A DNA stretch of 64,000 nt. It comes from Prorocentrum cordatum. Its lineage: Eukaryota. The position numbers and the translations under genes were made by a program. A model generated the notes under the pieces. The model was not told the DNA's origin. It worked only from the letters and a program-made list of their open reading frames with translations, and made no database searches. Below, one piece after another: positions 5,542-56,475 of the stretch. Each line of letters starts with the position of its first letter. The stretch's first letter is position 1. The stretch is taken from the NCBI GenBank assembly GCA_963575745.1, contig CAUYUJ010000170.1:186001-250000 (forward strand), in the 5' to 3' direction.

Positions 5542-5563
5542 CTTGAGCCAAAATGGCTACGGA
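5542..5563 (-). other. Relic dinoflagellate spliced leader (DinoSL), perfect 22/22
   Basis: The + strand cttgagccaaaatggctacgga is the reverse complement of TCCGTAGCCATTTTGGCTCAAG. Confidence 0.95.
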
Positions 5564-6821: not shown

Positions 6822-6997
6822 TTAACGGGCGAAGAACGGTATAGGGTAAACTTTTTCGCCGTCGGGGACACCTGCCCCAGCTGGGAAAGTTCATACCCCT
6901 ACGGTGCCACCGTAAGGGTATAAACTTTCCAGCCGCCCTGGGACAGGAGCACCCGACAGCGAAAAAGTGAATTTTATATCGTTCTTCGCTCGCTGAA
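6822..6997. mobile_element. Palindromic MITE family D, copy 1; second copy 48450-48629
   Basis: Near end-to-end inverted repeat centred on tacggtgccaccgta; flanked by direct repeat (aa)cgatag. Confidence 0.75.
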
Positions 6998-8523
6998 CGA
7001 TAGGGGGGGGGACTGGTTCAAGGGGGGGGCATCGACCTGGAATCGGCGTCGGCGACAGGCCTCCGATGGCGAACCCGCACGGGTCTTGGCGGGGTGGGCC
7101 ATCAGGCCGCCATCGGCGATCAGTGGGCGATTGAGGGTCGATCCCCAGACCCGGCAGAAGCCAACACCCTCCCCCACAAAGTGACGAACGCCGTGCCGTC
7201 GGCAGCGAGGCAGACTGGCTGCACCAGCGATAGAACTAAGTGGGGCCACTGAGAGGCGAATTGCTCGGAAGGCGGGAGAGGGGAAAACGGAGGAGAGAGG
7301 GGGCACACCAAAAAAATGACGAACACACCACCCCCGACGTGGTGGGGGCAATCGACGCGCGTCACTGCCCGCAAACAGGGCCGCCGGGGCGCGCAGAAGG
7401 CACCACCGCCGAGACAGGAGTGCTCCGGGCCTCCTCTGTCCGCACACCTCCCTCGTCCTCCCTCCTCCCTCCTCACCTGCCCCTCCTCTCCTCCTCGTCG
7501 TCCTCCTCCTCCTCCTCCTCCTCCTCCTCCTCCGCATCTCTCTCCTCCTCCTCCTCCTCCTCCTCCTCCTCCTCCTCCTCCTCCTCCTCCTCCTCTTCAA
7601 ACCTTTCTCCTCATAGATAGCTCCTCCCTGCCGCACCCCCAGACGAGTCTTTAGGGCGGGCCGGGCGTTTCGCCTGAGACCTCCTCACCGCTTGTGCTCC
7701 TGAAGCTTGCAAGTTGCCGCAAAATCACGGATAGAGGGCGGCTCGATTTCAAAACGGAGCTCTGGCCTTCGCGCCACGCACATTCCCCTGACAAGCTTCC
7801 CTTGCGGATGGAGGGCGGCACGTCTTCAGACTGTGGCTCCCGTTTTCGCGCTGCGCACGTTAGTCGTACAAGTTGAAACGGCTTCAAGGATGGAGGGCAA
7901 TTCCTTTTCAAAATGTGGCTCTCGCAATAGCGCCGCGCACATTCGTCTTGAAAGTATGCAGCATGTTGAAGGATTCGTATGGTTGTAGTCCACGGAGTTG
8001 TGGTTTCGCTCGCTGTAGGATTGTCAGGACGCAGCAGTCACGTTGATTCGCGGCGTTGACGTCTTAGGGATGGTGTTCTGATACGATTTAGGACTGTTCG
8101 CGGCGCTGCGTTCCCCGAAATTGCGTGTTTTGGTCAACTGGGGGCTCCCAAGGCCCTATACACGCCCAGAGAGCCCCGACTCGCCCCAGGATCGCCGGAA
8201 AATCGTCCCAAACGCGTGTAAATGCCTCCACATGGCCCACCACGCTCCCGAGGCGTACCACGCAGGCGCCCCGACGGCCCAGATGGCCCCCGAGAGGCTC
8301 CACGAGGTTTCCACGACGATGCTGTGATGCTGCTTGCCGCGGAGTTCCTCTCTTGTTTCCAACCCTCCTATGGTTGGGTACTCGTTTTGAATAGAGCAAT
8401 GTGGTCGCCCCGTCTTCCTCCTCCTCCTCCTCCTCCTCCTCCTCCTCCTCCTCCCCTCTCCTCCCCTCGTCCTCTCCTGTTTCCTGTGTTCCCCTCTCCT
8501 CTTCTCTCTCGTGCCGTCGGGTT

Positions 8524-8826
8524 TGCGATCTGCGCAACCGTCGCCACTTTCGTGGGCTCCTGGGAGGCCCAGCGGAGGTGGGTCCCACGCGGATCGCCTC
8601 GGTAGCTCGCCGCCCCCTGGGGGGCTTGCGATCTGCGCAACTGTCGCCACTTTCGTGGGCTCCTGGGAGGCCCAGCGGAGGTGGGTCCCACGCGGATCAC
8701 CTCGAGACCTCGCCGCCCCCTGGGGGGCTTGCGATCTGCGCAACTGTCGCCACTTTCGTGGGCTCCTGGGAGGCCCAGCGGAGGTGGGTCCCACGCGGAT
8801 CACCTCGATAGCTCGCCGCCCCCCTG
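8524..8826. repeat. Tandem satellite, 103-bp unit; left part (3 units) of an array split by the LTR element
   Basis: gcgatctgcgcaa recurs at 8525, 8628 and 8731. Confidence 0.95.
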
Positions 8827-9115
8827 TGTCAACCCGATATTACGAAGAGGGGTCTTAGAGCGATGAAAACCGCAACATTTGATATCAGCAATGATGTAAA
8901 TGTATCTGCGAAGATAGGCGATGGTTTGTTGCTCAGCGAGACCTGCAAAAGTATCTACCGATACGCCCAAGCCCGATGGGCCCTGAAACACATTGAGCCC
9001 AAATGGATACGAAAGGACATGTTACCTCTCGCCTGAATGTTCGCACACTCTGCCTGCTTGCTGGCATGCTATGCAGCACTGCTTACAGATCAGCACGGAC
9101 ACGATTTATTTCACA
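8827..9115 (-). repeat. 3' LTR
   Basis: tgtcaacccg...atttcaca; about 25 differences from 17001-17288 by manual alignment. Confidence 0.93.
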
Positions 9116-9409
9116 CTCTTGCACAATTCTTCTGATATGTGCATCTCTGGTCTGAAATCATCTAGACGTGTTAAATCTCACGTAAACTAACTAAGCTGAA
9201 ACCGAGCGCCTGATGCGCTCTATCCTGAAACCAGGCGGATGGCGCGCTTGAAAAGCGAGCCGGCACTTTCCATATGTGCCTCGTGCTCTCGGGCCTGGTC
9301 AGTTGGCTCTTGGCGCTGCAGTGCGAGGCGTGTGTCTCGCAGCACTGCCCTGATGGCACTGCCGTCAGATCGCTTGGTGAATTGATATCCGAGATGCTGG
9401 TCAGTCGGA

Positions 9410-17000: not shown

Positions 17001-17288
17001 TGCAGACCCGATATTGCGAAGAGGGGTCTTAGAGCGATGGAAACCGCAAGGTTTGATATCAGCAATGATGTAAATGTGTATGCGAAGATAGGCGACGGTT
17101 TGTTGATCAGCGAGACCTGCAAAGGTATCTACCGATACGCCCAAGCTCAAGGGCCCTGCAACGAATTGAGCCCAAATGGATACGGAAGGACATGTTACCT
17201 CTCGCCTGAATGTTCGTACACTCTGCTTGCTTGCTGGCATGCTATGCTACACTGCTTACAGATCAGCACGGACACCATATATTTCACA
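17001..17288 (-). repeat. 5' LTR
   Basis: tgcagacccg...atttcaca, adjacent to the PBS and TSD. Confidence 0.93.
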
Positions 17289-20244
17289 CCCTGGGGGGCT
17301 TGCGATCTGCGCAACTGTCGCCACGTTCGTGGGCTCCTGGGAGGCCCAGCGGAGGTGGGTCCCACGCGGATCACCTCGAGACCTCGCCGCCCCCTGGGGG
17401 TCATGCGATCTGCGCGACTGTCGCAACTTTCGTGCGCTCCTGGGAGGCCCAGAGGAGGTGGGTCCCACGCGGATCACCTCGAGACCTCGCCGCCCCCTGG
17501 GGGGCTTGCGATCTGCGCAACTGTCTCCACTGTCGTGGGCTCCTGGAAGGCCCAGCGGAGGTGGGTCTCACGCCGATCACCTCGAGACCTCGCCGCCCCC
17601 TGGGGGGCTTGCGATCTGCGCAACTGTCGCCACTTCCGTGGGCTCCTGGGAGGCCCTGCGGAGGTGGGTCCCACGCGGATCACCTCGAGACCTCGCCGCC
17701 CCCTGGGGGCTTGCGATCTGCGCAACTGTCGCCACTTCCGTGGGCTCCTGGGAGGCCCAGCGGAGGTGGGTCCCACGCGGATCACCTCGAGACCTCGCCG
17801 CCTCCTGGGGGCTTGCGATCTGCGCAACTGTCCCCACTTCCGTGGGCTCCTGGGAGGCCCAGCGGAGGTAACTGTCGCCACTTTCGTGGGTTCCTGGGAG
17901 GCCCAGCGGAGGTGGGTCCCACGCAGATCACCTCGAGACCTCGCCGCCCCCTGGGGGGCTTGCGACCTGCGCAACTGTCGCCATTTTCGTGGGCTTCTGG
18001 GAGGCCCAGCGGGGGTGGGTCCCACGCGGACCACCTCGGTAGCTCGCCGCCCCCTGGGGGGCCTGCGATCTGCGCAACTGTCGCCACTTTCGTGGGCTCC
18101 TGGGAGGCCCAGCGGAGGCGGGTCCCACGCGGATCACCTCGAGACCTCGCGGTGCCCTTGGGGCTGCGATCTGCGCAACTGTCGCCATGTTCGTGGGCTC
18201 CTGGGGGGCCCAGCGGAGGTGGGTCCCACGCGGATCACCTCGAGACCTCGCCGCCCCCTGGGGGGCTTGCGATCTGCGCAACTGTCGCCACTTTCGTGGG
18301 CTCCTGGGAGGCCCAGCGGAGGTGGGTCCCACGCAGATCACCTCGAGACCTCGCCGCCCCCTGGGGGGGCTTGCGACCTGCGCAACTGTCGCCATTTTCG
18401 TGGGCTTCTGGGAGGCCCAGCGGAGGTGGGTCCCACGCGGATCACCTCGGTAGCTCGCCGCCCCCTGGGGGGCTTGCGATCTGCGCAATTGTCTCCACTG
18501 TCGTGGGCTCCTGGGGGGCCCAGCGGAGGTTGGTCCCACGCGGATCACCTCGAGACCTCGCCGCCCCCTGGGAAGCTTGCGATCTGCGCAACTGTCGCCA
18601 TGTTCGTGGGCTCCTGGGAGGCCTAGCGGAGGTGGGTCCCACGCGGATCACCTCGGTGCCTCGCGGTGCCCTGGGGGCTTGCGATCTGCGCAACTGTCGC
18701 CACTTTCGTGGGCTCCTGGGAGGCCCAGCGGAGGTGGGTCTCACGCGGATGACCTCGAGACCTCGCGGTGCCCTGGGGGCTGCGATCTGCGCAACTGTCG
18801 CCACTTTCGTGGGCTCCTGGGAGGCCCAGCGGAGGTACGTCCCACGCGGATCACCTCGAGACCTCGCGGTGCCCTGGGGGTTGCGATCTGCGCAACTGTC
18901 GCCACTTTCGTGGGCTCCTGGGAGGCCCAGCGGAGGAAGGTCCCACGCAGATCACCTCGAGATCTCGCGGTGCCCTAGGGGCTGCGATCTGCGCAACTGT
19001 CGCCACTTTCGTTGGCTCCCGGGAGGCCCAGCGGAGGTGGGTCCCACGCGAGTCACCTCGAGACCTCGCGGTGCCCTGGGGTCTGTGATCTGCGCAACTG
19101 TCTCCACGTTCGTGGGCTCCTGGGAGGCCTAGCGGAGGTGGTCCCACGCGGATCACCTCGAGACCTCGCGGTGCCCTGGGGGCTGCGATCTGCGCAACTG
19201 TCGCCACTTTCGTGGGCTCCTGGGAGGCCCAGCGGAGGTGGGTCCCACGCGGATCACCTCGAGACCTCGCGGTGCCCTGGGGGCTGCGATCTGCGCAACT
19301 GTCGCCACTTTCGTGGGCTCCTGGGAGGCCCAGCGGAGGTGGGTCCCACGCGGATCACCTCGAGACCTCGCGGTGCCCTGGGGGCTGCGATCTGCGCAAC
19401 TGTCGCCACTTTCGTGGGCTCCTGGGAGGCCCAGCGGAGGTGGGTCCCACGCGGATCACCTCGAGACCTCGCGGTGCCCTGGGGGCTGCGATCTGCGCAA
19501 CTGTCGCCACTTTCGTGGGCTCCTGGGAGGCCCAGCGGAGGTACGTCCCACGCGGATCACCTCGAGACCTCGCGGTGCCCTGGGGGCTGCGATCTGCGCA
19601 ATTGTCGCCACTTTCGTGGGCTCCTGGGAGGCCCAGCGGAGGTGGGTCCCACGCGGATCACCTCGAGACCTCGCGGTGCCCTGGGGGCTGCGATCTGCGC
19701 AACTGTCGCCACTTTCGTGGGCTCCTGGGAGGCCCAGCGGAGGTGGGTCCCACGCGGATCACCTCGAGACCTCGCGGTGCCCTGGGGGCTGCGATCTGCG
19801 CAACTGTCGCCACTTTCGTGGGCTCCTGGGAGGCCCAGCGGAGGTGGGTCCCACGCGGATCACCTCGAGACCTCGCGGTGCCCTGGGGGCTGCGATCTGC
19901 GCAACTGTCGCCACTTTCGTGGGCTCCTGGGAGGCCCAGCGGAGGTGGGTCCTACGCGGACCACCTCGAGACCTCGCGGTGCCCTGGGGGCTGCGATCTG
20001 CGCAACTGTCGCCACTTTCGTGGGCTCCTGGGAGGCCCAGCGGAGGTGGGTCTCACGCGGATCACCTCGAGACCTCGCGGTGCCCTGGGGGCTGCGATCT
20101 GCGCAACTGTCGCCACTTTCGTGTGCTCCTGGGAGGCCCAGCGGAGGTGGGTCCCACGCGGATCACCTCGAGACCTCGCGTTGTCCTGGCGGGCTGCGAT
20201 CTGCGCAACTGTCGCCACGTTCGTGGGCTCCTGGGAGGCCCAGC
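17289..20244. repeat. Tandem satellite, ~29 units of 103-bp and 101-bp variants
   Basis: Unit gcgatctgcgcaactgtcgccactttcgtgggctcctgggaggcccagcggaggtgggtcccacgcggatcacctcgagacctcgc...; no unique spacers. Confidence 0.97.
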
Positions 20245-20989
20245 AGAGTTACGCCTTACGAGTTGCCGCTGCTCTTCTTTCTGCGCTCTTCTGAGTTCAC
20301 TGATGGGTGCTCTTCTTCCGCACTGCGGGTTTTTCAGCATGTCCGTCAGCATTGAGTGGTCCCGAATGTAACCACCACATGTATAGAATGGGTTGGGTAC
20401 GTCGCAGGGTAATTTGTGTGTAACAGGACGTACTAGAGATGCAACGGCCAGCGCTGCACATGAGCTGTTACCTTGGGCTGCAGCCCGCTGGAATTGCTGC
20501 TGCCATGGGCGGCAGAGTCACACAACTACTCGAGCAGTAATAATCTGTGCACACGGCACTGGAGTGATCAGTCCTGGAGTGCTGTCCTGAACGGTTGTTC
20601 AATTTCCCGTTTGTTCTTGGTTGTTCCTGTTGGATTCAACCTTTTCGGCCTACTGACGCTCCACAGCAGCCCCAAAGGGCGAAAGCTCGCCCCAAGACGA
20701 TTTCAGAAGCCCCCTCCAGGGCGCCACACTGACCAAGAGGCCCCAAAGACGCCACAGGAGACTTGCAGGACAGCCCCAAGAAGGCACCACATCGCTAAAA
20801 CATCACTGCCAGACGCTCATCAAGCCTTCCAGGTGGCACCACCACTAATGACGACGATGACGACGACGACGATGACGACGACGACGCGCGAAAGAAGCAC
20901 AGTACGGCGGATGAGCAGGACATGGGATGCAACTGGCACTCGGTGATGGGACGGCGTTGCGGATCGGCAGGAGTGTCTCAGGACGTCTG

Positions 20990-21530
20990 GGGGGAAGCTT
21001 TTGGGGGCCTCTTGGCGGCCTCCTGGCGCTTCCTGGGGGCCTCTTGGTGACTTCTTGGAACCTCTTGGGGGCCTCTTGGGAGCCGCTTGGGACCTCTTGG
21101 GGGCCTCAAGGGGCGGACAGCTCGAAATGTCGGTTCGTGTTCCTCCTCTGGGGTCCCTCTTGAGGCGTTCTTGGGGCCCTCTTGGGCTGCTTTGGAAGTC
21201 TCTCGGGCCGTCTGGGAGGCCTGTTAGGCCGTCTCGGTGCCCTTGGGGGCCTCTAGGGCCGTGTCGGGGCGATATTCGGGGCCTCCGAGACCGTCTTGGA
21301 GCGTCGAGAAGCCGAAAAGGCAGAAACGCGAAAAACCTTCGGAAAATGAATGATTACTGCCTCTTGGGGCCCTTTTGAGAGTGCTCTTGGAGACCCCTTG
21401 GGCCGTGTTGGAAGCGTTCTGTGCCGTCTGGAGGTCACCTTGGGCGTGTTAGAACGATATTCAGCGGCGCTGGGCCCCCTTTGAGGCCTCTTGGGGCCCT
21501 TTTCATGTGCTTGGGGGCGGTCTTGGGGGC
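20990..21530 (-). repeat. ccccaagagg-rich dispersed repeat; related tracts at ~32250-32890 and ~46060-46510 in the opposite orientation
   Basis: Degenerate ~11-bp cttgggggcct / ggccccaaga tandem motifs. Confidence 0.7.
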
Positions 21531-21994
21531 GCCCCTCGCGGCCCGGTCCCGCCAAGCGCGCTCGGGGCCCGGGCCCGGCAAACGACAACGGCGAGGCTAT
21601 CGACACGCCAAATGCGCGCCAATCTCCAGCCGACGCGCCAGATGCGCGTTGACCGGACGAGCAGAAGTGGAATGGAAGCGCCAAACACGCCCCATATTTC
21701 AGATGATCAGTTGCGGTGAACGCCATGGAAGCATGCAGACGCTGTAACACACGATGAAATCAATTCAATGTATGGACCCCAACAGTAGGCAAGAGGTTTG
21801 AAGATCACGGGAGTGTTTCCCCAGCTCATCACGACCTCAGACAAACCTTCAGCTCGGATCAAAAACTTCGTAGTTAGCGTCAGCGGTGAGTCACACTTGT
21901 AATGCCAATACGACAAGTACTGACCGTCGTCTGTATCGCGGTCTTTCAACCGCCGCAGGCGCAGCATAACTCCGAAGCGGTGAAGCCCCTGTCG

Positions 21995-24900
21995 TCATAT
22001 CTGGCCCCCGCCGCAAGCGCAGCACATGTCCTGTGCAGAAAAATCTTCGGAGTCGTAATAGAATGCGTAGGAGCAATATTCTGCTTGCTTGTCCCAATCT
22101 TTACACGAATTAGAAGCAAGATCAAATGCGCCCTCTTCGGCGGTGTCGACGCACGGATCTTCTTCTAGTACCATCCCCGAGCAAGCGCAACACATATCGA
22201 CGGCCGTAAAATCATCGTCGTCCCATTCATAGCAACTTATTTCCAACACGTCTTCAGAATACCCATTGTACCACTGACAAGGTTGATTGTTACTGTTGAG
22301 ATTGCTGACACAGTCGCAGGTGCAGTTGTGGTCGATCATCGGCACGTCAAGTGGCGATCCTTCTTCTACGCCTCCGTACAAAATGCTGCCGTAAAGGCTG
22401 ACCGACAGCTGAGAGGTGTCCAAGCCGTCAACGAGAACAATCGCATCCTTCACGCTCGAGCTGAAACTTGCCCCGCTTACGACTGGAACGACACGTCGCT
22501 CTAGAAAAAATAATTGCTGGGGGGAGAACTCTCGGAACAATATTCTCGTGCATGCCATGACTGAGCCCTGGTGGAGCTCCATCTGCACATCGTCGATTGT
22601 GCTGCTCGGGCTGTAATCCAGGATTGTCTGAAGGACCAGATCCTTCAAGTGTCTGGTCACGTCGGACTGTTGAGCAATCGAAAGGTCATCCAGGTCCATG
22701 CCGTCGATTAGGATGGTAAACTCAATCGCAGCTGTCTCGCTACCTCCAGAGCAAGCGCAGCACATCTCACTAGCTGTGAAATCGTCGTCGTCGGCACTAC
22801 AATTTACAGTCTGTCCAGCGTCTAAATAGGATTGCAATTCTCTGCAACCGCGGCCATTCGCATCTACAGAGCCCAGAGAATACGCATTATGGCAAGGGTT
22901 GTAGAAGGATCCACCCCCACATGCACAACACTGCACTGTGGCAACGAATGTTTCGTCGTCGTTGTCGTGGCACAAATCAAAATTGGTTCCATTCGGACAC
23001 TTCTTCGTGGCATTGACAGGAACGGTGTCCTCACAGCTGACAGTTCCATTGCTAGCAGTCGTCGAAAGCGTCTCCCCAACATAGTCTGCCCCGTCCTCGC
23101 TGTACCATGGGTGAACATGTCGGCAAGTACCGTCGCAATCTGTAAACACGCACTTGGCGGGGCACTCGGTGAGCGAGCTGGCTTCCGTGCACTGGCATGC
23201 GCTGGGACAGAAAGACTTGATGGACGTGCCCTCGACTGGATTGCACAAGTCTAAATTGAGGAGAGAAGCGATCTCATACGAAGCGAGAAACTCGCAGCCG
23301 GTCAGACCGCGGGGGTGCGGAACGCCTGGCGCGATCTCCCAATTGCTCGTGGTCGCCAGCATCCTGAAGAACCAACCAAGCGTGATGGAGTCCAAGATTA
23401 CCTCTGCTTGTCGTTCCGAAGGAGAGATGCCGACGTAGTCTTCTTTGACGACGTTCCTCACGCCGTCTTCGAACCCTGGTCTGGAGTACAAGTATTGGAA
23501 GAGGCCTTGCACGTAACGAAACCATGCGAGATTCTCTCGCGGCATGTCCGTGCAGTCGTTAGTCCACTCGTCCCAGCACTCTGCAGAGCTCTTCACATTG
23601 TATTTGCCACCTCCGCAAATGCAGCACATCTCAGACGCGGTGAAGTCACCGTCGTCTCGCTCTGCGAAGACACCGTACTCCCAGACGCCGGCCGCCGTTG
23701 CGCAGATCTGGTCGTTGCGGCCGATGTTTGCGGTCATAATTCTTTCGTACTCCGCGCAGTCAAAGAAGTATCTGTCGAAAACTTCAACGCCATGGTCGTC
23801 GCGGTTGGAGCTGGAACAGTTGCCTGGGAAGGTGAACTGGGCGACGTCGAAATCAGTGCACTGCGTGAACCGAGGCCAGTTCGGCTGCGCCATGTCGAAC
23901 CGGAACCTGATCTCATTCTCTGCCGCCCGAAACGTCGAGCACTGCGTGGGGCACCCGAAGCCCGGGGTCCCGAAGAAGCCGACCCGGCCGGAGCCGGTGG
24001 TCAGGAAGGTGGCGTCGCACTCGCAGGTCTTGGGGCAGAGCGCCCTCAGCTGGTACATGTGCTGGTCCGAGCACATCTTCAGCGGCACCTCCGAGCAGTT
24101 GGTGAGGTCACTGATGCCCGTCACCAGGCGCAGCTCCATGGTCGCCGCGGCCACATTGAGGTTCTCGGCCAGGTCCTCGCACGGCAGCGACGCGGCCGCG
24201 TCCGCGACGCTCCACGACGACATCTGGATGATCCGCTTGAAGCTGTCGTCGTTGGCCACGGCCGCCGCGAGGGACGGCGCCCTCGGCTCGAATACGGCCC
24301 TCGAGGAATCCACGCTGGAATGGGCGAACATCTCCTCTGTGATGTCGGTCTCCTCCCAGTGGTAATTCTGCGGGTCGAGGAGGGGAGGCTGCGCCACCCC
24401 AGCCACGGTGTACTCGGACTGGGTCCACTCCGTCCGGGACGGCGTCTTGGCAACGTGGACCAGGCCTGTGGCCGGGTTCACGGTGTAGATGAAGTCTGTC
24501 TGGCCCTGGCACATGATCATCTCAGCCTGTCGCAGCTGCCAGAACACGAGGGGGTCCATCCACAGATACAGGAGGACGAGCACGAGAAAGGCCCCGCCAA
24601 TTTTCAGCATGGAGTTGATCACCGAAAGCTGGGTCCCTCCCCTGGCGTTCCGTGTCATCAGCGGCAGTGGCTCCAGATTGTTGACCAGGATCTTGACCCT
24701 CCGCGGCACGAAGATATCAAAGATGCACTCGTCGAAATCGAGCACAAAGGCCAGCGCCACACCGTTCAGGATCAGTTCGGTCAGGCTGATGGTGTGTGCC
24801 AGCCACTTGGCGCCCACCCACCAAAGGACCCCAGCGAGTATAATTTTCGGGCAGCACACGAGAAGGCAAACCGCGTAGAAGCGGCCGTACCAGATCCTTG

Positions 24901-27029
24901 TCCAGCGGACCACCTTCATGATCGATATCAGGTTGGAGTGCGCCAGCTCGTCCTCGCCGTGGTCCTGCTCGATCAATGACCGCAGAAAGGTCCCCGACTT
25001 CTGGTAGAGCTGCGACGTCCTGCTAGACTCGGTCATCTTCGCGCACGCGTCTTCGGTCGTCGTCTTGCTCTTCGTCTTCACCACCCCGTTCTCCTTGTCG
25101 TCGTCGCTGTCGGAGTCCTGCAGGTCCGCAAGGAACAGCCGCGAGCTCCTCCTGCTCCTCAGGATGCCCTTCAGGCCCCGAAAGATGGTGACGGTGTTGT
25201 TGATGTCCCTCAGGACGGTGGACGCCCACAGGAACTGGATGAGCATGACCAGGGTCTCGGCCAGCCAGGCCTGCTCCACGCTGAACTTCGAGATGTTCGA
25301 GTACAGGTCCTGCCAGGAGAGCCCAGAATCGAATCGATAAGTCGGATCGGCGATCGAAATGAATCGGATCGGCGGAAATCGGCAGCCGAGTCGGGAAAAG
25401 TCGAATCGGCAGACATCGGCAGGCTAAAAGGCCTCCAATAAGAAATCAGAGCCCAAGTCGGAATCTCAAGTCGAATCGAATCGGAATCGGAAGCCATCGA
25501 AATCGAATCGAATCGAATCGGAGGGATCGAAACGAGCCCTGTCCTGCTGCCCGCCAGCCAAGTGGAGCTTGGCCTCCTGCGTGCACACCTGCGACGCCAT
25601 GGACCGCTGAGACACCCTGTCCGCGTAGTCCGCGTGGTGCGCGGCGCCGAGCCGGAACTGCAGCAGGCCCTGGAGGACCTCGGGGGAAATCGCCTGGTCG
25701 TCTTCCAGCATCACCTCGACGATGTAGACGAACGCAACCTGCAGGCAGATGTTCATCAGCCAGCAGACGCTCACCAGAACGGAGCACGAGGGCCCGACGG
25801 CGGGGATGAGGACGAAAAACATCGAGTCCCAGACGGAAGAGTTCGAGCGGTACATGCCGCCCTTGTCCAGCATGCTGGCGGTGACCGCGATAAGCTTGCC
25901 CTCGCGCATCGTGTTCTCGCCCTCGTCGCTGTCCGAGCTGAGGGTCGACATCATGGTGGGCACCGGAGGAGGAGGAGGAGGAGGAGGAGGGAGGAGGGAG
26001 GAGGAGGAGGAGGAGGAGGAAGAATAGGAGAAGGAGGAGGGGGAGGAGGAGAAGGAGGACGAGGAGGAGGAGGAGGAGGAGGGCGGAGGAGGAGGAGGAG
26101 GAGGAGGAGGAGGAGGAGGAGGTGGGCACCGCGACCATGCCCAGCGCTTCGCCCGCCATGGGGCCCAGGTGCGGCGCCGCGCGCGGCGTCCCGCTGGGCG
26201 ACGCGGCACTGCTGGCGCCGTTCTCGCCCGCGCTCCTGCCGATCACGCTCGGCCCAGGCGCCTTCGACCCGCTCCTCGCGGAGGGGCTGACGGCCAGGTC
26301 GTCTGGCGCGTCGATGTCGAAGGTGTGCTCACCTTCACTGTCGCTCTGCAGTCGGTTGTTCGGCTCGTCGTCTTCCTCCGTCTCCTCGGTCCCCGGGATG
26401 CGGAATGGGTTGGTCTTCGCATCGCCGTACGCCGACGTGGCCTGGGACTCGGTGCTGTCCCTGACGCTGAAACGCATGGATGTGCCGCGGGCGAGGGGAG
26501 TCGCATCGCCGTACGCCGACGTGGTGTTCTGGGAGTCGGTGCTGTCCTTGAGGCTGAAAGGCATGGCTGTGCCGTGGGCGCTGTCCAGGGTGTTTTTCCT
26601 CCCCAGCGTCGTGGTCGAGCCCCTGCCGGAGCGATGCATCGCGGACGTCCGCGACCTGTCAAGGCTGCTCGACGTGCCGTCACGCTTGATCTTCTTGACC
26701 TTGTCCTTGAGCTTGGTCAGGTGCTCCTTCAGCTTGGTGTTGGTCTGCTCGACGATGCTCATGATGTCCGCCCGGTTGGCGACGGTCTGGTTGCGAACCC
26801 TGACGAGCTCCTCCTCCTGTGACTTTATTATCTGCTGCTGAGCTTTCAACTGGCTGTCGAATGACCGCACGACGACCTCGAGGACCTCGGCCACCTGGTT
26901 GCCAGACAATGGCAATGCGGTCTTGAGCGCGGCGATGAGGCTGGTCAGGTTCGGATCCTGGCCGGCACTCGTCTCGGAGTCTTGCATTTCTGGCCACTCT
27001 TGCCGCGCGCCCGGGCTGTCCGCCGCCAT
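21995..27029 (-). CDS. Large multi-pass membrane protein with Cys-rich extracellular region, about five DDxFxAxxMCCACGG repeats and a SEA-like domain; segments 27029-26121, 25954-25544, 25309-21995; possibly inactivated by the GGA insertion
   Basis: 1094-aa ORF with several hydrophobic segments; frame continues upstream after removing 25310-25543 (GGQQ|DLYSNISKF) and the GGA insertion (VAVPT|MMSTL); relic SL ~125 nt upstream of the ATG. Confidence 0.8.
25314..25541. mobile_element. 228-bp element (family E, CAGG..CCTG ends, gaatc-rich) forming intron 25310-25543
   Basis: 6-bp TSD tcctgc (25308-25313, 25542-25547); second copy of the same length at 38869-39096. Confidence 0.88.
25965..26120. 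repeat. (GGA)n tract inserted in the CDS, flanked by the 10-bp direct repeat ggtgggcacc
   Basis: ggtgggcacc at 25955-25964 and 26121-26130. Confidence 0.9.
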
Positions 27030-27153: not shown

Positions 27154-27175
27154 CTTGAGCCAGAACGGCTACGGA
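27154..27175 (-). other. Relic DinoSL (20/22) upstream of the membrane-protein gene
   Basis: Reverse complement reads TCCGTAGCCGTTCTGGCTCAAG. Confidence 0.9.
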
Positions 27176-28564
27176 CCGACGTCGCCGACGAATTGGGACA
27201 TGGACCACGAACAGACTTGGCAGATCCCATGCGGCACAGATCCTCCCTTCGACGGCTTCCACGGGGACTTCACGGAGCCGCTGGACGACGTCGATGCGAG
27301 CACCCAGCGATCCCTCTGGAGGCAGGCGAGGAGGAGGAAGATGATGATGAGGAGGCGGAGGAGGAGGAGGCGGAGGAGGCGGAGGAGGAGGAGGAGGAAG
27401 GAGGGAGGAGGAGGAGGAGGAGGAGGAGGAGGAGGAGGAGGAGGAAGAGGAGGAGGAGGGAGGAGGAGGAGGAGGAGGAGGAGGAGGGAGGAGGGAGGAG
27501 GGAGGAGGAGGAGGAGCCGAAGCATGAGTCGCCCGACCAACCTGACCCTGCGGCACGCCGGCCCCCTGCGCGTGGCCCCCGCGGGAGCTCGCCGCGTGCG
27601 AGCCAGCCAGGTCGGCGGTCGAGCGACATCGACGACTGGGCCGTGGGCGTGGTCGCCGCCACGGGAGGACCGGCGGTGGACAAACCTCCCTTTAGCAAAC
27701 CTCCCCTTAGTGAAAACGGCCTGGGACCGAGACCGACGAGCCCGGACCCGCAGAAACGACGGCCGCGGCGCCCTCTCGCGAACCAAAAACGGCCAATTCC
27801 CTAATCGACGTGTCGGGGTAGGAGGTCTATCAACCTCCGAGGAGAGGACGGGTGGCCCCGCGAGCGGATGCGTGCTGCGGGGTACACGCCTGCCCTGCAC
27901 GTGCGCTCGTTGCGGACATGAAAATGGAGCGCTGTGTATCATCGAGGCTGGAGCCGAGTAAGCGTCGAGGCCGTGGCGACGTCGACGAATCTGCGCTCCT
28001 CTGCGAGCCCGCCAGAATCTACCACGGGAGCTGCCCCAACTGGACTCCGAGGGGCCCCGAGGATCCGTGAGACCCTCCTGCAGCTCGACGAAGACAGAGC
28101 CCCGACCCGACTCGAGCCCGGCGAATCTGAAGCCCCTCCCCGACACGCTGAGGGTTCCGCTGCCGCGCTTGGGGACGGGTGGAGGAGGAGGAGGAGGAGG
28201 AGGAGGAGGAGGAGGAGGAGGAGGGGCAGGAGGAGGCGCTGTGGTGCTCGAGCCCCTCCGCACCCAGGACGGCCCCTCGAGGGGCCCCGCGGCTGGCGTG
28301 GGCTCCTCGGTGCCCGGTGGCCGCCAGGCGGTCCCCCCTGCTGAAGGGGCCACGGCCCGGGCGGCCGCCCCGGAGGCCACCCCTGGACCGCTCCAGTCCG
28401 CAACGGGCCACAAGTGCTGGGCGTGTTTTCCACCACCACCACCACCATAAGTTGGAGGGGGGGGGGCTCCTCCTCCCACTCCTCCCCCTTCTCCTCCTCC
28501 CCCTCCTCCTCCTCCTCGTCGCCCTCCTCCTCCTCGCCCTCCTCCTTCCCCCCACCAGCTTACG

Positions 28565-28830: not shown

Positions 28831-29350
28831 AACTTTCCAGGAATCCATGATCCGTGATCCCCTCGACACTGACAAGCGGAACGCGGAGGCGGCGGTGTTG
28901 ATCCGCAATAAGGGTTCGGAGAGCTCCAGTGGAGTGCATCAAAAAGCAGATTTCCGGACCGCCGAGAGACCCACTCCCGTCCTGCCTCCCCCGCTTCACA
29001 AGCTGGCAGGGCCTTGCGTGATTCCCCGCACACTTGGAGGAGAGCGGGGGCGAAATATTTCCGTGCGCGTTTCAGCTTGAGCGACAATCAAAAACGGGTC
29101 TCACGCCAGGTGACGTAGCGACCTTACGCGGCGGCTTACGCGGGCTGCCAGCGCGGTACGCTGCATTGGAGACGAGAGCTCTCACGCGCGACCTTACGCG
29201 GTCAGCTTACGCGCCAATGTCGGCGCAAACGACTCCGTTGTGTCTTGCGTCGCTCACCTGTCTGCGGATACGGATTCCATGCCCCAGGCTTGCGAAACCA
29301 GGCGCGAGCCCCATGCTGTTGGCCAGGGAGGTTCGGCCCTCCCCAGACTC

Positions 29351-29555
29351 TTGGAGGCGTGGAAATGGGCACCAACACCAAGACAAGGGGCTGCCTCCAC
29401 AGGGGGAAGATGATCCTAGATTTTCGGTGTTGGTGGTAATAGTTCGGTCACCTTGGAAGCCAGAATATTACCACCATCACCGAGATCGGGATCCTCTTCC
29501 GTCGGTGGAGGCACACCGCCGATATTGGTGTTGGTGTCAATCTCTAGGCTTGCGA
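29351..29555. mobile_element. MITE family A, copy 3 (a more diverged partial copy at ~31190-31340)
   Basis: Similar to 1546-1748 over its full length. Confidence 0.8.
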
Positions 29556-29725
29556 AGACCCCAGGTGTTGGTGGGTCGAGAGCTCCGCGTGTCCCACTCG
29601 TTGAACTTGGTCGCCTGCTCTCGGTGCGGGAAACCCGCGACGACGGGTCCCGGGCACCTCTCGGGCGCGTGCCCGGTTACCCCGAAGGGGTTCCATAACC
29701 TAGCCTATAGAAGGAGAGGCAAGTA

Positions 29726-29889
29726 TGAAGGGGCCCCACGACACACAAATAAATACACACAAATAAAATAATGCCCCATATTTTCTTATATTTTCTGGGT
29801 TTCTGTCTTCCCGCCCAATTCCCATATTTTCCCATATTTTCTGGGGGATCGACGATTAATTGTGTCTGTGTGCTTTTTTCCTTCCTGGT
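29726..29889. mobile_element. Dispersed element (cacacaaataaatacacac...aattgtgtctgtgtg); second copy ~41520-41685
   Basis: Two similar copies; this one is flanked by a 20-bp direct repeat. Confidence 0.7.
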
Positions 29890-34533: not shown

Positions 34534-35733
34534 GAGGAGGAGGAGGAGGAGGAGGAGGAGGAGAAGGAGGAGGAGGAGGAGGAGGAGGAGGAGGAAGAGG
34601 AGGAGGGAAAGGGGAGAAGGAGGGGGAGGAAGATAGAGGAGGAGGAGGAGGAGGAGGAGGAGGAGGAGGAGGAGGGAAAGTGGAGGAGGAGGAGGGCGCG
34701 AACGCTCCGGCGCATCGGGATGCGGAGCAGCGTCGTGGAAGCATCTGGCCGCCTCGGATCGTCGGACCATCGGACTCGAGCCGGATCGGGCAGGCCAGAA
34801 TCGATACGGCCGGGCCTGGGACATCCCTCGAAGGACATCCCTCGAAGAAGGGAAAACGAGGAACATAGAATCGTATAATAATCCCTCAAGAAGACATCCC
34901 TCAAGAAGAGAAGTCGAAGAGGGGCCCTCGAAGAAGAGAAAACGAAGACATCCCTCAAAGAACATCCATCGAATCGGATAAGAACATCCCTCGAAGAAGA
35001 GAAAACGACGGACACATAAGCTTTTTCGCGCTCCGCGCGGATTTCTCGGATCCACGCTGCCCCCCCCCCAGCGGCGCTTCCGGCGCCGCCCCTGGCGCGC
35101 TCCTCGCGCCAGGGAGGGGGGTCCAGCGTAGATCCAAGAAATCCGCGCGGAGCGCCAAAAGCGTATGTTTATGTCGTTTTCTCTTCTTCGAATCCTTCAA
35201 GAACATGAGACCCTCCGCCGGCCAAACGGAAGAAGAACTTTCGAGGGTGTCCTCCCACAGGATGCACAACAGCATCCAACGACCAACAAGCACGAAGCAC
35301 ATTCGGGCACCCTCCCCGAACCGACATCGATCTTGCACCCCGGTCCGACCGCATAAAATCCGATCGACTGGATCGAAATGGATCCTGTGCCAAGTCCCGC
35401 GCGTCCAACGGGAGAGTTGTTTTCATGGCCCGCGCCTGACAGGGTCCAGCACAAGCTTGCAGGCCAACGGCTTAAAAAAGTTGAGCCAGCACCTGGTCTC
35501 ACGGAAGACTCTCTGGATCGCTGGCGGAAAACCCACTACTGAGACGCTTCGAATGCGCCGAGAGCCGGAGACCGAGGGGGAGAAACAGGACGAGGCGTTC
35601 GACTCGACTGGCGCCGATGCGTTCGGGCGGTCGCGCTTCCGCTGGCCAGACTCGTCCGCAGGGACATTTACTGCTCCGCCAACGCTCATCATCATCACCC
35701 GCATGGCAGGCACCCTGCGGCGCCTCGCATGGT

Positions 35734-35945
35734 AGGGGGCCACATGCGAACCCTACCCCTACCCCCCAACGATTTCCGAGAAGGAGGGTGGGGTTCACTC
35801 CGCTCGGGAGCTCCCGAACGAAGCGAACCCCACCCTCACCCTCAGAAATCGTGGGGGGTAGGGGTCGGGTTCGCACATGGCCCCGCAGCATGGCCCTCAG
35901 AAATCGTGGGGGTAGGGGTAGGGGTCGCATGTGGCCCCGCAGCAT
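35734..35945. mobile_element. Palindromic MITE family F (right arm duplicated); second copy ~60235-60385
   Basis: gggccacatgcgaaccctacccctaccccc...gggggtaggggtcgggttcgcacatggcccc, centre tcgggagctcccga. Confidence 0.7.
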
Positions 35946-38868: not shown

Positions 38869-39096
38869 CAGGAGAGCCCGGAATCGAATCGATAAGTCGC
38901 ATCGGCGATCGAAACGAATCGGATCGGCGGAAATCGGCAGCCGAGTCGGGAAAAGTCGGATCGGCAGACATCCGCAGGCCAGTAGGCCTCCAATAAGAAA
39001 TCGGAGCCCAAGTCGGAATCTCAAGTCGAATCGAATCGGAATCGGAAGCCATCGAAATCGAACCGAATCGAATCGGAGGAATCGAAACGAGCCCTG
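38869..39096. mobile_element. Family E element, second (non-exonic) copy
   Basis: Same ends and length as 25314-25541; no clear TSD here. Confidence 0.85.
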
Positions 39097-39445
39097 GAAC
39101 CCCCTGTAACAGAACGTGGCTTCGTGAGAACGACCTCGGGCCCAAGACTGGCGGGCGCGAGCCTGGAGAGTGACGGCCGCGGCGCCCTCGAGGACCGAGA
39201 ACGAACAGTTCGCTAATCGCCGTGTCAGGGTTGGGGTTCTGTCCACCCCCGATGGGGGCCTCCTGGGAGCCCTGGGTGGCCTCTCGGGGGCCCCTTTGGG
39301 CCTCCTGGGGGCCTCCCGCGCCGAGGGCTCGAAAGTGTCCCTTCGGCTCCCCCCCCCCTCGGGGCCCCTCCCGCTGGCAGCGCCGTCGCGCGCGGGTGGC
39401 GACCCGCCAGTTGCGCTTGGGCCCCGTGGACCTCCACGTCATCCA

Positions 39446-39494: not shown

Positions 39495-42209
39495 CTCAGC
39501 TCCTCCCTCCTCAGCCCCTCCCTCCCTCCTCCTCCTCCTCCTCCTCCTCCGCCTCCTCCCCCTCCTCCTCTTTCTCCTCCTCCTCCTCCTCCTCCTCCTC
39601 CTCCTCCTCCTCCTCCTCTTCGAGCTCCTCGTCGTCCTCGTGCTCCTCGTCGTCCTTGGTCCTGGCCCCTGTGGCGAAGACAGCAGGGGGCCGCAAACAA
39701 CAGTCGGGGTTCCTCTGAGGTTGTTTTTTGTCTTCGGCACGCCCCGTCGAGTGGGAGGGGGTGGAGGAGGAGTAGGAGTAAGAGTAGGAGGAGGAGGAGG
39801 AGGAGGAGGAGGAGAGGAAGATGAGCGCCCTTGCACCCTCCACTGGACTCACCGCATCCAGGTCACGAAGGGCGTCTTTTGATGCGAAGCGTGTGGTCGT
39901 TGCGGGGCCCGTTCCGACACGGGTAGGGGCCCCGTGGAAGTACAGAAGCTGACCAGGCCTCGCGAGCCCAGGGCTCGGGGAGAGTGGGGGTCTCGAGTCA
40001 TCGAAGCTCTGGCCGCGGGCCACTTATCGCCAGCATACTGGACCTGGCCGGATGAGCAGGAGGTTGCCCAGTGATTCCGTTGAATCCCAGGTGTTTTCGA
40101 TTCTCTCGCCGTGCCTGTTTCAATGAGCTAGCGGTGGATTCCCAGAGAAAAGGAGGACCAGAGCAAGCCAAATATGCATCAGCGATGATGCACCTCCACC
40201 TTCCGTCCAAAGCTTAGGTCGGACATGTCCTCCAACAGGCGGATTCTGGGAGAAGGACGAAACTAGCCCCAAACTAGATTCGGGCCTTGCCAAGAATAGC
40301 CGAAACAGCGTCCCCCGACTAGTATCTTGCTGTCTTTGAATAGTCCTCCAGTAGGGGGGCATGCCCGACTTACCCATCGGTCGGAAGAAGTGGGTAGAAC
40401 CATGAAGTAGAAAGGCGTTGGAAATAGATCGGGTTTCCGCCCCGCCTCCTGAAGAGGAGGGAAGAGGGAAAACCACTCGACTCTTGAAGTAGGAAGGCGC
40501 TGAAAGTAGATTGGAATCTGGGAAGGTACCTACTTTCAACGACCGAGGGGTAATCCAAAGTCCCCCGATCATACGTCCCCACGAGCGTGCCCCTTCGCTG
40601 CAAGCAGTGCCCCCCTTCCTGAAGGACCCGCACCGCTGCTGGGAATGCCGTCCAGGCGGGGGCCGCGCGTTGAGGAGGAATGGACTCACCTCCTCCTCCT
40701 CCTCCTCCTCCTCCCCTTTCTCCTCCTCCTCCTCCTCTCTTCTCCTCCCTTCTCCTCCTCCTCCTCCTCCTCCTCCTCCCTCCTTCCTCCTTCCTCCTTC
40801 CTCCTTCCTCCTTCCTCCTCATCGCTCTGACGCAAGCCCGCGATTGCGAAAAGCTATGACCATAACAACGAGGCGTCCAAGGATAGTCCGTTCTCGAAAA
40901 GGGACCGCTTCCGCCTTCGCGTGACTGTTGCACGAGCTCATACATGTGGTCATGGGCGATGGAGGAGTCCCAAGCGACAGCTCCGTTTATGTGGAACCCT
41001 CGGGCCTAACAATTAACGAAGTGCCCAGAGATAACCCCGTGTTGGGAAAGATCAATCCTCACATCTTCGAAACGTTGCGTTAAGAAACGAATGCGCGCGT
41101 CGCTGAACCGCACGCCCCACGTTTTAAACAACCAGTGACCCACCCTTGAAATTGCTGTTCGGGTTTGAAACGAATGCCCGCGAGGGGCGATATGGCGAGC
41201 GCCATTTGAAACCAGCCCCTCCTTCCATCCTTGGAAACGAAAAACGAAAAAGATTCGTAATACGAATGCACACGGCGAAAAGGCCAGGGCCACATGTTGA
41301 AACTCCCCCCAGACCAGACAGCTATTGCAAACTTGTGGGCGGATGCGCGCGTGGAACTGCGGCGATAACCACGTTTTGAAAACGAACCTCCCCCATCCCT
41401 GAAGCCGCTGCAGTGTTGTGAACGAGTGCGCGCGGCGCGAAGGCGAGAGCCACACTCAGCAAAGGAGCCGCTCTCCGTCCTTGAAAAGATTGCATGTTCA
41501 CGGCGATTACAGGAGCAAATTTGAAGGGGAACTGGGACACACAAATAAATACACACAAATAACATGTTTCCCCTATATTTCCTCATACTTTCTGGGATTT
41601 TGTCTTCCCCCCCACTTCCCATATTTTCCCATATTTTTCTGGGAATCGCCGATTAATTGTGTCTGTGTGTTTTTTCCCCTCCTGAAAAATGCTGAAACCG
41701 ATTTGCCCCATTCACGCCTGAAATTGCTCCAAGCGTTTACAACGACTGCGCGCGACGCGAAGGCGAATGCCAGATGATGAAAACAACACCCTCCAACCCT
41801 CAGACTGTTACAAGATTTGAGGACGGCCGTAGACGGAGATAAGGAGAGAGCCGCATGTAGAGAACCAGCCCCTTACGCCGTTCAAACTGTTCGAATGTGT
41901 GAGGTTCAGGCTAACCCACCCTATGAACCACGCCGGGGGGTGGGGTGTGGGGGGGGGGGGGGGCGATCGAGGAATTACTGACAAGGCCAAGGAGCGGCGG
42001 AGGAGGGGGAGGAGCAGACAGGCAACCCATCGGCTCAGCGCGGCGAGTGATTAAATGGCCAGTGGACAAGCAGCGGAGCCTGTGCACACAGGCGCGTCGA
42101 CCTGAGACTTCTCGTCGTCAATATTCCTCCTCCTCATTTTCGTCCTTCTGCTCCCCTCATCCCTCCTCCTCATCCTCCTCACCCTCCTCTTCCGTCTCCT
42201 CCTCCCCCT

Positions 42210-48449: not shown

Positions 48450-48629
48450 TTAACGGGCGAAGCACGGTATAAAATAAACTTTTTCGCTGTCGGGGGCGAC
48501 TGTCCCAGGGCGGCTGGAAAGTTTATACCCTTACGGTGGCACCGTAGGGCTATAAACTTTCCAACCGCCCAAGGACAGGCGCCCCTGACAGCGAAAAAGT
48601 TCATTTTATACCGTTCTTCGCTCGCTGAT
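48450..48629. mobile_element. Palindromic MITE family D, copy 2
   Basis: Similar to 6822-6997. Confidence 0.75.
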
Positions 48630-54493: not shown

Positions 54494-56475
54494 GACAGCG
54501 GGCACCCACGACGGCGCAAGACGGCGCAAGGAAGCTCCCCAAGACGGCTCCGAGATGGCTCGGGAAGCCTCGACGCGGTTCTGAGGAGTGCTGGCGGAGC
54601 CCACGGCATCCACAGAACAGCCTCTGGGAACCAGCTTGGAAACCTGCACCCAACGCTCGCAGCGCCGCTCAGTGGAGGGCGCGATGCTGCGCGGAGCTGC
54701 GCGTTGTTGCGCGGCTGCGTTACTCTGGCGAGCTGCGAACAGATTTCCAAGAAGCTCCTGTGGATCGGACACGTACAGAAGGCACAAAATCCACCCCCAT
54801 AGTCAGCATTACGACCAGCGAAGCCGTTTAGTAATTAAGCGCGCCCGAGGAAGGAATCGGACAGGGCGGGGCTGCTTAGTAAACGCCCAGGGCCGTTTAG
54901 TAGACGCCAATTGTCGGGGTCTCGGTGGTTTCTCCTCCCTTGGATGTCAGTGCAAGGACACCAACCGTGGCGCTCCTGCTAGGGCAACGTCTTCCAGGCA
55001 TCGAGAAGCTGACGTGCGGTGAAGGGCCAGCGGAAATAAAGCGTGAGGGCTGTGCAGGGGGAGGCCGGAGTAAGTAGACCTCTGCCCTCCAAGAGGTGTG
55101 AGCTTGTTCTAGGCGGCGAGCGAATGGGGGAACAGTTCGGGTTCGAGGTTCGAGGTTCGAGGTTTTCGGACGTCTTCGTTGATTCTCGGCGGTTTTCCAG
55201 CCTCGAGATGCTTGTCAGCAGCTGCGCCTCGCCGAGGGCGTTCCTGGGGTGCCCAGATCGTCCCGAACGGCCGCTGGAGACCTGACTTTTGACCCTAAAA
55301 CCACATTCGGCGGCGGGCGAGGGGGGGAAGTGAGAAGGAGAAGGCCTTCTCAGAAGGCGGCGGGACTTCTTAAAAGGCCCCCTGGGCCTTCTGAGAAGTC
55401 TCCTGTGTCGTAGGGAAGGCTTCGAAAGAAAACGTCTCAGAAGGCCCCGGGACTTCCGAGCCTTCCGAGAATCGGGGGTACGCAAACATGGATTGGCGAT
55501 CCATGGATTTGGCGCGCGGTCGCCTGATCCATGGATCGGGGGAGGTGCCCTCCCCAGAATGCGGCCGCTGCCGCCTCGCCCGGCGGTGGAAATCCGTGGA
55601 ACCGGGACGCGTCGCTAATCCACGCCCCCTTGATCCATGTTTGCGATCGCCTGAGAGGAGGCACCCTCCTCCTCACTTCCCCCCCGGGCTCGCCGCCGAT
55701 GCCTGGGGCGCAAAGGACCTCTGGGAGGAGCCAGCCACCGACCCGCGCCGACCCTGGCCGGGCACGCCCCCTTGGCCTCGGAGCTGCCCGGCCAGGGTCG
55801 TGTCGTGTCGTGTGCGGTTGGCGTCCTCTCCGGCGAAGGTTAAAAATCACCGAGTGGCCGTTCTCGAAGGGCGGGGCTCGAGCCAAAATGGACGCGGTGG
55901 AAGCAGAAGAAGAAGAAGAACAAACAAAAAACGCACAGACATAATCGTTTGGCGCTCCGCGCGGATTGCTTGGATCCGCGCCGACCCCACTCCCTGGCGC
56001 GCGGAGCGTGCCAGGGGCGGCGCCGGAGACGCCGCCAGGGGGGGCCCAGCGCGGATCCAAGAAATCCGCGCGGAGCGCTTAAAGTTTATGCTTATGTGGC
56101 TTTCGCTCCGAGGAAGGAAGAAGAGACAAGCCCCCGCAATCCTGGCGACGGGGTGTGATGCGCGCGCGTCTCCTGGCAAATCCTTCCTCCTTCTACCTCT
56201 CCCCTCTCCGACAACGGCGACAACGACGACGACGACGACGACCCAAAATATGTTCCCCAAGCTCTGAACGTGTCCCCCGACTCCTTCCCGTGTCCATCCT
56301 GGCCAGGTTTCACCCCGGATCGACTTCTCACGGTCAGGGCCCGAAACGGGCCCACCAGAGAACGAAAACAACGAAAAGCCTCATCGACCCTTGATCTTCG
56401 ATCCCGCGCGATGACGGCGGCGGCGACGTCCGACGAAAAACGGCGACGGCGACGGCGTCGGCGACCACGACGACC

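What the first reader, a model, noticed from the sequence alone, without database searches (positions are those of the whole stretch)
25310..25543. Introner-like event: a 228-bp mobile element creates a perfect GA-AG intron using its TSD
Seen: the element (CAGG..CCTG) sits in coding sequence with 6-bp TSD GCAGGA (minus strand) and contains an in-frame stop. Splicing CAG|GAcaggg...cctggcAG|GAC removes exactly the element plus one TSD and restores GGQQDLYSNISKF. A copy with the same ends lies at 38869-39096. Known: dinoflagellates use GA/GC donors and AG|G junctions, and introners co-opt TSDs. Inference: both splice sites come from the duplicated target, so any insertion at an AGGA-containing site can be spliced out, giving an intron-poor retrogene a new intron.
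Basis: partly seen in the sequence, partly recalled or inferred. Interest (0 to 1): 0.75.

Follow-up and report, generated by a model that had tools for sequence, protein, structure and literature searches.

The report
Transposon-made intron in dinoflagellate retrogene
A 228-base repeat landed inside a protein-coding gene of a dinoflagellate alga and can be cut out of the message as an intron by using the small duplication it made on landing; this way of making introns has already been described in related algae.

Summary
A 228-nt element (25314-25541, minus strand) interrupts a long open reading frame. It is flanked by a 6-7-bp direct repeat, GCAGGA(C), and carries two in-frame stops. Removing 25310-25543 (234 nt, GA..AG, phase 0) restores the frame. 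The restored protein runs straight across the joint in 4 of 7 homologues; the other 3 do not reach it. A second copy (38869-39096, 95% identical, same ends) lies in non-coding DNA and has no flanking repeat. The host is a dinoflagellate retrogene: a relic spliced leader (19 of 21 letters) sits 124 nt upstream of its ATG. One contig of a probable RNA run joins exactly across the 234 nt. That contig differs from the window at 14 of 304 letters, so it comes from a paralogue, and splicing at this locus is not shown. Both splice sites coming from an AGG-containing target duplication is already published for Polarella (Roy et al., classes 12-14), and repeated AGG intron boundaries for Crypthecodinium. 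So this is a new member of a known kind, of modest interest. Copy number could not be measured because no genome is held. A second interruption of the same gene, (TCC)n between 11-bp repeats with no GY..AG register, is unexplained.

The parts
25310..25543 (-). Proposed phase-0 intron, 234 nt, GA..AG followed by G. It equals the element plus one copy of the flanking repeat.
   Evidence: register 4 of 8. joint 25306->25541, skips 234, 7 letters fit either side, in one X1 contig that is 95% like the window.
25314..25541 (-). Element copy 1, 228 nt, CAGG...CCTG ends, 63% pyrimidine in the gene's sense, two in-frame stops.
   Evidence: (D13).
25542..25547 (-). Upstream copy of the flanking repeat GCAGGA (7 bp with 25541). 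Holds exon end CAG and donor GA.
25308..25313 (-). Downstream copy of the flanking repeat GCAGGA (7 bp with 25307). Holds acceptor AG and first exon bases GA.
38869..39096 (-). Element copy 2, same orientation as copy 1, 217 of 228 letters identical, no flanking repeat, in DNA without a convincing reading frame.
27154..27174 (-). Relic dinoflagellate spliced leader (19 of 21 letters), 124 nt upstream of the ATG. Marks the host as a retrogene.
   Evidence: 3 matches in the window against 0.01 expected by chance.
26121..27029 (-). Exon 1 of the host gene (ATG at 27029-27027), 303 codons, 45% identical to P0001 residues 23-338.
25965..26120 (-). Second interruption: impure (TCC)n block between 11-bp direct repeats CGGTGCCCACC (26131-26121 and 25965-25955). 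Exact removal of 166 nt restores frame and colinearity, but no register gives GY..AG.
25544..25963 (-). Exon 2, 140 codons, 78% identical to P0001 residues 336-475, ends ...HLAGGQQ.
21995..25309 (-). Exon 3, 1104 codons plus stop (21995-21997), starts DLYSNISKF, 64% identical to P0001 from residue 475/476 on.

Best explanation
A short non-coding dispersed element inserted into the coding sequence of a retroposed gene. The organism is a GC-rich core dinoflagellate, probably Prorocentrum. The staggered cut was filled in, which duplicated 6-7 bp of target, GCAGGA(C). The target contained AGGA. The upstream copy therefore offers exon-end AG plus donor GA. The downstream copy offers acceptor AG plus the exonic G that dinoflagellate acceptors favour. 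The element's pyrimidine-rich 3' end (..CTCTCCTG) lies just before that acceptor. The spliceosome can thus remove the element plus one repeat copy (234 nt, phase 0) and leave the message unchanged. Shown: the insertion, the duplication, the unique GA..AG register, the exact colinearity of the restored protein with homologues, and the retrogene mark. Inferred: that this copy is transcribed and spliced, and that the element moves by transposition.
For: Anatomy. Chance of such a flank identity in this window is 0.16%, and of the 4-nt inverted ends 0.56%. Colinearity: the upstream exon ends at P0001 residue 475 and the downstream exon starts at 476. P0003, P0004 and P0005 also cross the joint without an insert. 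That makes 4 of 7 homologues; P0002, P0006 and P0007 give no alignment at the joint. A joined form exists: one X1 contig (304 nt, depth 115) skips exactly 234 nt with 7 ambiguous letters. Its 11 listed differences from the window are 6 synonymous and 5 conservative changes, as expected of an expressed paralogue. Window-identical contigs (0 other letters) cover 21800-25179 and 25658-25930 in X1 and X4. All three exon frames (4641 nt) are stop-free. Under neutral change of 2.4% per site (half the divergence between the two copies), 2.5% of 3000 simulations stay stop-free. The relic spliced leader is 124 nt before the ATG. Published precedent: TSD-only splice-site recruitment and an excess of GA donors in young introns; repeated AGG-bearing intron boundaries of 2-9 bp.
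Against: The joined contig is not this locus: 14 of 304 letters differ. X1 is only guessed to be RNA. No window-identical contig covers 25180-25657 in X1 or X4. Only 2 copies of the element were seen, and copy 2 has no flanking repeat. The inverted ends are only 4 nt and the intron RNA has no special fold (z -0.87). The same gene has a second interruption with no GY..AG in the colinear register, so the copy could be damaged. The window's own protein is absent from the protein collection. The simulation assumes that the two copies diverged after the insertion.
Confidence: 0.55

Rival explanations
1. The window's copy is a dead or silent duplicate. The element, and the (TCC)n block, are unspliced insertions. 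The RNA seen comes from intact paralogues that never had the element.
For: The joined contig differs from the window at 14 of 304 letters. Window-identical contigs stop at 25179 and resume at 25658 in X1 and X4. The second interruption has no GY..AG in the register that keeps colinearity. No identical protein is on record.
Against: 4641 nt of exon frames are without a stop; only 2.5% of neutral simulations at 2.4% divergence stay so. Contigs identical to the window cover most of the gene in X1 and X4. Contigs drop rarer variants by design, so a missing low-depth path next to a depth-115 paralogue path is expected (tool text).
Confidence: 0.2
2. The insert is not a mobile family. It is a one-off 228-nt piece copied from the nearby locus at 38869-39096 into a staggered double-strand break during repair, and it then became an intron.
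For: There are only 2 copies in 64 kb, 13.5 kb apart and in the same orientation. Copy 2 has no flanking repeat and lies in non-coding DNA, as a source sequence would. The inverted ends are no longer than 4 nt. There were 0 matches in 2 metagenome, 2 viral and 1 prokaryote-genome scans, though none of these collections is known to hold dinoflagellate genomes.
Against: The ends CAGG/CCTG are inverted, which has a 0.56% chance. A flanking duplication of fixed short length is typical of transposase cuts. Another repeat in the window (6822-6996) has a 7-bp flanking repeat, so such machinery has acted here.
Confidence: 0.2
3. An older intron was already there and the element merely landed in it.
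For: None found.
Against: The removable stretch is exactly the element plus one repeat copy, with 0 further intron bases. The host carries a retrogene mark.
Confidence: 0.02

Closest known systems
Introner-like element classes 12-14 of Polarella glacialis (Roy et al., bioRxiv 10.1101/2020.10.14.339549; parts 1-2 of 4 read; the 2023 Current Biology version was not read)
   Same: Both splice sites are recruited from an AGGH-bearing target-site duplication. The message is unchanged after splicing. That paper reports GA donors as typical of young introns and phase 0 as favoured.
   Different: The duplication here is 6-7 bp (NNAGGA[C]) against 4-5 bp there. The genus is different. Only one genic copy was seen here, against 123-196 introns per class there.
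Identically repeated intron boundaries of Crypthecodinium (Mendez et al. 2015, PMC5032977; abstract and passages read)
   Same: A repeat of 2-9 bp containing AGG at both splice sites, found once in the mRNA.
   Different: That paper describes a general boundary pattern, not a repeated mobile insert. Here the whole intron is a dispersed repeat.
Symbiodinium introners (Roy et al.; Gozashti et al. 2022, PMC9860276, passages)
   Same: Short non-autonomous insertions with a target duplication that become introns in dinoflagellates.
   Different: Those carry inverted repeats and their own 3' splice site, and take only the 5' site from a 4-bp duplication.
Introner elements as defined for Amoebophrya and applied to Prorocentrum cordatum (Farhat et al. 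2021, PMC7789003; Dougan et al. 2023, PMC10666404; passages read, supplements not read)
   Same: Repeated introns with direct repeats over the exon/intron borders. P. cordatum is the closest named relative of the host gene.
   Different: The definition needs inverted repeats of 8-20 nt near the intron ends, and this element has 4 nt. Their direct repeats are 3-5 nt, and here it is 6-7.
Florenciella introners (Gozashti et al. 2022, legend of Fig. 2E)
   Same: The element carries neither splice site and co-opts both from the insertion site.
   Different: The lineage is a stramenopile and the sites are canonical.

Membership tests
Introner / introner-like element (Roy, Gozashti) | Many near-identical copies that each form an intron in unrelated genes | tested here: inconclusive
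   2 copies in the window, 1 of 2 in a gene. No genome is held. 0 matches in 5 collection scans that are not known to hold dinoflagellate genomes.
Introner / introner-like element (Roy, Gozashti) | Insertion in coding sequence whose exact removal restores the uninterrupted message | tested here: met
   the joint falls between P0001 residues 475 and 476, and 4 of 7 homologues cross it without an insert.
Introner / introner-like element (Roy, Gozashti) | Removed from RNA by splicing | tested here: inconclusive
   One joined contig in X1 at the predicted borders, but 14 of 304 letters differ from the window and the run's RNA label is a guess.
Introner / introner-like element (Roy, Gozashti) | Target-site duplication that supplies splice-site letters | tested here: met
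   GCAGGA(C) on both sides of copy 1, with a unique GA..AG|G register inside it. Copy 2 has none.
Introner element sensu Farhat 2021 / Dougan 2023 | Inverted repeats of 8-20 nt within 30 bases of each intron end | tested here: not met
   Only CAGG/CCTG (4 nt). The best local alignment of the two ends is an internal GATTCGAT motif, not a terminal repeat. No hairpin.
Miniature inverted-repeat DNA transposon | Terminal inverted repeats of about 10 nt or more plus a target duplication of fixed length | tested here: not met
   The inverted ends are 4 nt. A duplication is present at 1 of 2 copies.
Dinoflagellate retrogene | DNA-encoded relic of the 22-nt spliced leader upstream of the coding sequence | tested here: met
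   19 of 21 letters at 27154-27174, same strand, 124 nt before the ATG. 3 matches in the window against 0.01 expected. The query motif was recalled from memory. Its use as a retrogene mark is stated in the abstracts listed.
Dinoflagellate retrogene | Lacks the parent gene's introns | not testable with these tools
   The parent gene was not available. Song et al. 2017 note that some retrogenes keep parental introns.
Dinoflagellate spliceosomal intron | Donor GT/GC/GA, acceptor AG followed by G | tested here: met
   GA..AG|G. The rule is as described.

The most novel reading that the evidence does not exclude
This retrogene records two separate intron births after retroposition, each from an insertion bounded by a direct repeat. 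One is canonical (GA..AG taken from the duplication). The other is the (TCC)n block, cut out exactly between its 11-bp repeats with no GY..AG at all. If true, a core dinoflagellate can excise insertions guided by boundary repeats rather than by canonical dinucleotides, as so far proposed only for the parasite Amoebophrya.
Probability: 0.08. Interest if true: 0.6.

Novelty: new member of a known kind. Interest (0 to 1): 0.3.

Why it matters
This is a clean single-locus example of intron creation by an inserted repeat. The retrogene mark gives the direction of change, gain rather than loss, without needing a phylogeny. It would extend splice-site recruitment from the duplication alone to a 6-7-bp duplication, and probably to Prorocentrum. 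It also bears on why dinoflagellate retrogenes carry about as many introns as other genes (Song et al. 2017, Table 2). It adds no new principle.

Tried and rejected
Whole-genome search: no genome is held for this window.

Copies elsewhere: 2 patterns from the element gave 0 matches in metagenome contigs. The same 2 patterns gave 0 in viral contigs, and 1 pattern gave 0 in prokaryote genomes. These collections are not known to hold dinoflagellate DNA, so the blanks say little.

Short protein fragments across the joint: a 140-aa query gave 0 hits among proteins of 77-245 aa and only P0001 among longer ones.

Function of the host protein: no Pfam family for either part and no Atlas hit above 0.79.

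Intron RNA fold: z -0.87, with 43 of 200 shuffles folding as well.

Poly(A) relic: none seen by eye downstream of the gene in 20900-21720.

Cover of the element: no contig covers bin 25388-25525 in X4, X17 or X18, and X17 and X18 do not cover 25112-25930 at all. This is no evidence either way.

Earlier notes of this scan: nothing for this genome or this sequence, and one unrelated giant-virus note.

Segmental duplication as the link between the two copies: rejected, because the 24-nt flanks on both sides are unrelated.

The (TCC)n flanking repeat as a general feature of such arrays: rejected, because it occurs at 1 of 22 arrays. In that call's null, 106 of 2000 random nearby pairs share 11 letters or more, so the length alone is not rare in this repeat-rich window. 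What matters is that the repeat abuts the block and matches the homologue's joint.

Full report
WHAT IS THERE

On the minus strand the window reads ...GGGCAGCAGGA|CAGGGCTCG...(228 nt)...GGGCTCTCCTG|GCAGGACCTG.... The 228-nt block at 25314-25541 recurs at 38869-39096 in the same orientation. 217 of 228 letters are identical, and similarity ends sharply at both borders (family D13, 23, 33, 54). A low-stringency search of the window found no further copy.

Copy 1 is flanked by GCAGGA on both sides. The repeat is 7 bp if the next C is counted, which is ambiguous because the element starts with C. In this repeat-rich window, a 6-bp flank identity at that spacing occurs at 102 of 63542 positions, and 4-nt inverted ends at 353 of 63566. 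Copy 2 has no flanking repeat. It lies in DNA with only low-complexity reading frames.

THE HOST GENE

A 1104-codon frame (25309-21998, stop at 21995-21997) continues upstream of the element as a 140-codon frame (25963-25544). Read through, the gene's frame meets two stops inside the element. Removing 25310-25543 gives ...HLAGGQQ|DLYSNISKF....

A protein search gave 7 relatives:
- The best is an unnamed 1638-aa protein, P0001, at 62% identity.
- The named ones are Prorocentrum cordatum (35-36%) and Durusdinium trenchii (26%).

In P0001 the upstream exon ends at residue 475 and the downstream exon starts at 476. P0003, P0004 and P0005 also cross the joint with no extra residues. P0002 does not reach the joint, and the alignments of P0006 and P0007 stop short of it. 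So the stretch is an insertion relative to 4 of 4 informative relatives.

No Pfam family and no Atlas lead name the protein. It has four copies of a Cys motif.

ORGANISM AND RETROGENE STATUS

No genome is held for the window. Three things point to a core dinoflagellate, probably Prorocentrum:
- The window's GC is 54-70% in 2-kb steps, against a genome mean of 59.7% reported for P. cordatum (PMC10666404, passages).
- The closest named relatives of the host gene are dinoflagellate proteins.
- Relics of the dinoflagellate spliced leader are present.

The spliced-leader motif (recalled from memory) matches three times with up to 3 mismatches, against 0.01 expected. All matches are on the minus strand. 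One match (19 of 21 letters, 27154-27174) lies 124 nt upstream of the host gene's ATG at 27029. Such DNA-encoded relics are the accepted mark of retroposed genes (abstracts listed). One caution applies: Song et al. 2017 report that some retrogenes keep parental introns.

THE INTRON READING

Eight cut registers give the same message. Only one has an AG acceptor: GA at 25543-25542 and AG at 25311-25310, followed by G. The donor, the acceptor, the exon-end AG and the first exon G all lie in the two repeat copies. The element contributes only its pyrimidine-rich 3' end. The intron is phase 0, between CAG and GAC. It has no long inverted ends and no notable fold.

RNA EVIDENCE

20 of 24 listed public runs hold part of the gene. 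Four were laid on 21800-25930. One X1 contig (304 nt, depth 115) joins 25306 to 25541. It skips 234 nt, and 7 letters fit either side, which is the predicted joint.

That contig differs from the window at 14 of 304 letters. Of the 11 differences listed, 6 are synonymous and 5 are conservative replacements. Two of the replacements give the residue that P0001 has. The contig is therefore a paralogue's message. It shows either the empty site or a spliced sister intron, not splicing at this locus. X1's RNA label is also only a guess.

Contigs identical to the window cover 21800-25179 and 25658-25930 in X1 and X4, but not the stretch between. The contig borders overlap the paralogue contig by exactly 30 letters on each side. 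This is consistent with the rarer path having been dropped during assembly, which is my inference; the tool warns that contigs drop rare variants.

INDIRECT SUPPORT FOR FUNCTION

All three exon frames (4641 nt) are free of stops. I assumed the gene drifted neutrally by 2.4% per site, half the divergence of the two element copies. Only 2.5% of 3000 simulations then stay open; the figure is 17% at 1.2% drift and 0.1% at 4.8%. The assumption that the copies diverged after the insertion is untested.

A SECOND INTERRUPTION

P0001 also runs straight across 26121/25963. There the window has 166 nt of impure (TCC)n between exact 11-bp repeats, CGGTGCCCACC. Exact removal restores the frame and ...GMVAVPT|MMSTLSS. 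None of the 12 registers gives GY..AG (read by hand).

Frame-keeping canonical alternatives exist, for example GC at 26127 to AG at 25938, which would cost 8 conserved residues. Alternatives with acceptors at or below 25922 clash with an X4 contig that is colinear up to 25930. Only 1 of 22 triplet arrays in the window has such a flanking repeat. This interruption stays unexplained and is the main reason to keep the dead-copy rival alive.

COMPARISON WITH WHAT IS KNOWN

- Roy et al. (preprint, parts 1-2 read) describe Polarella classes 12-14, which take both splice sites from an AGGH-bearing duplication. They also find GA donors enriched among young introns and a strong phase-0 bias.
- Mendez et al. 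2015 describe repeated boundaries of 2-9 bp containing AGG as the rule in Crypthecodinium.
- Gozashti et al. 2022 list elements that co-opt both sites from the insertion site.
- Dougan et al. 2023 report 'introner elements' in P. cordatum, defined by inverted repeats of 8-20 nt (after Farhat et al.). This element fails that definition.
- 'Prorocentrum' does not occur in the main text of either Gozashti paper. I did not see their datasets.

VERDICT

Splicing at this exact locus and the mobility of the element remain unproven. I rate it a new member of a known kind, interest 0.3.

Noticed in passing
window 25955-26131 (minus strand): A 166-nt (TCC)n block in the same gene lies between exact 11-bp direct repeats. 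The homologue is colinear across it, but no cut register gives GY..AG. It could be a non-canonical intron, an assembly indel in a coding microsatellite, or a broken gene.
   Followed up: partly
window 5542-5562, 17165-17185, 27154-27174, 55877-55889: Relics of the dinoflagellate spliced leader (21/21, 18/21, 19/21 and 12/13 letters), all on the minus strand. The window looks like a one-direction run of retrogenes.
   Followed up: partly
window 6822-6996 and 48450-48628: A palindromic repeat family of about 175 nt that matches itself in both orientations. The first copy has a 7-bp flanking repeat, ACGATAG. Other two-orientation families lie at 1543-1748 / 1907-2112 / 29348-29555, at 35015-35180 / 55928-56090, and at 35733-35884 / 60231-60386.
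   Followed up: partly
window 29719-29887: A 169-nt repeat (84% like 41515-41684) is flanked by an 18-nt direct repeat that includes its own first 5 letters.
   Followed up: no
window 17289-20248 and 8519-8823: Satellite of 101-103-bp units, about 29 units and 3 units. 8832-9119 is also repeated at 17006-17292 at 92%.
   Followed up: no
window 21998-25309 (minus strand): The host protein carries 4 copies of a motif F[TS]A..MCC.C[GS]G and has no Pfam or Atlas match. It belongs to a dinoflagellate-only family of unknown function.
   Followed up: partly
window 39120-39252 and 27706-27840: A weak repeat (74% over 136 nt) lies 23 nt from element copy 2 and about 530 nt upstream of the host gene's leader relic.
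   Followed up: no
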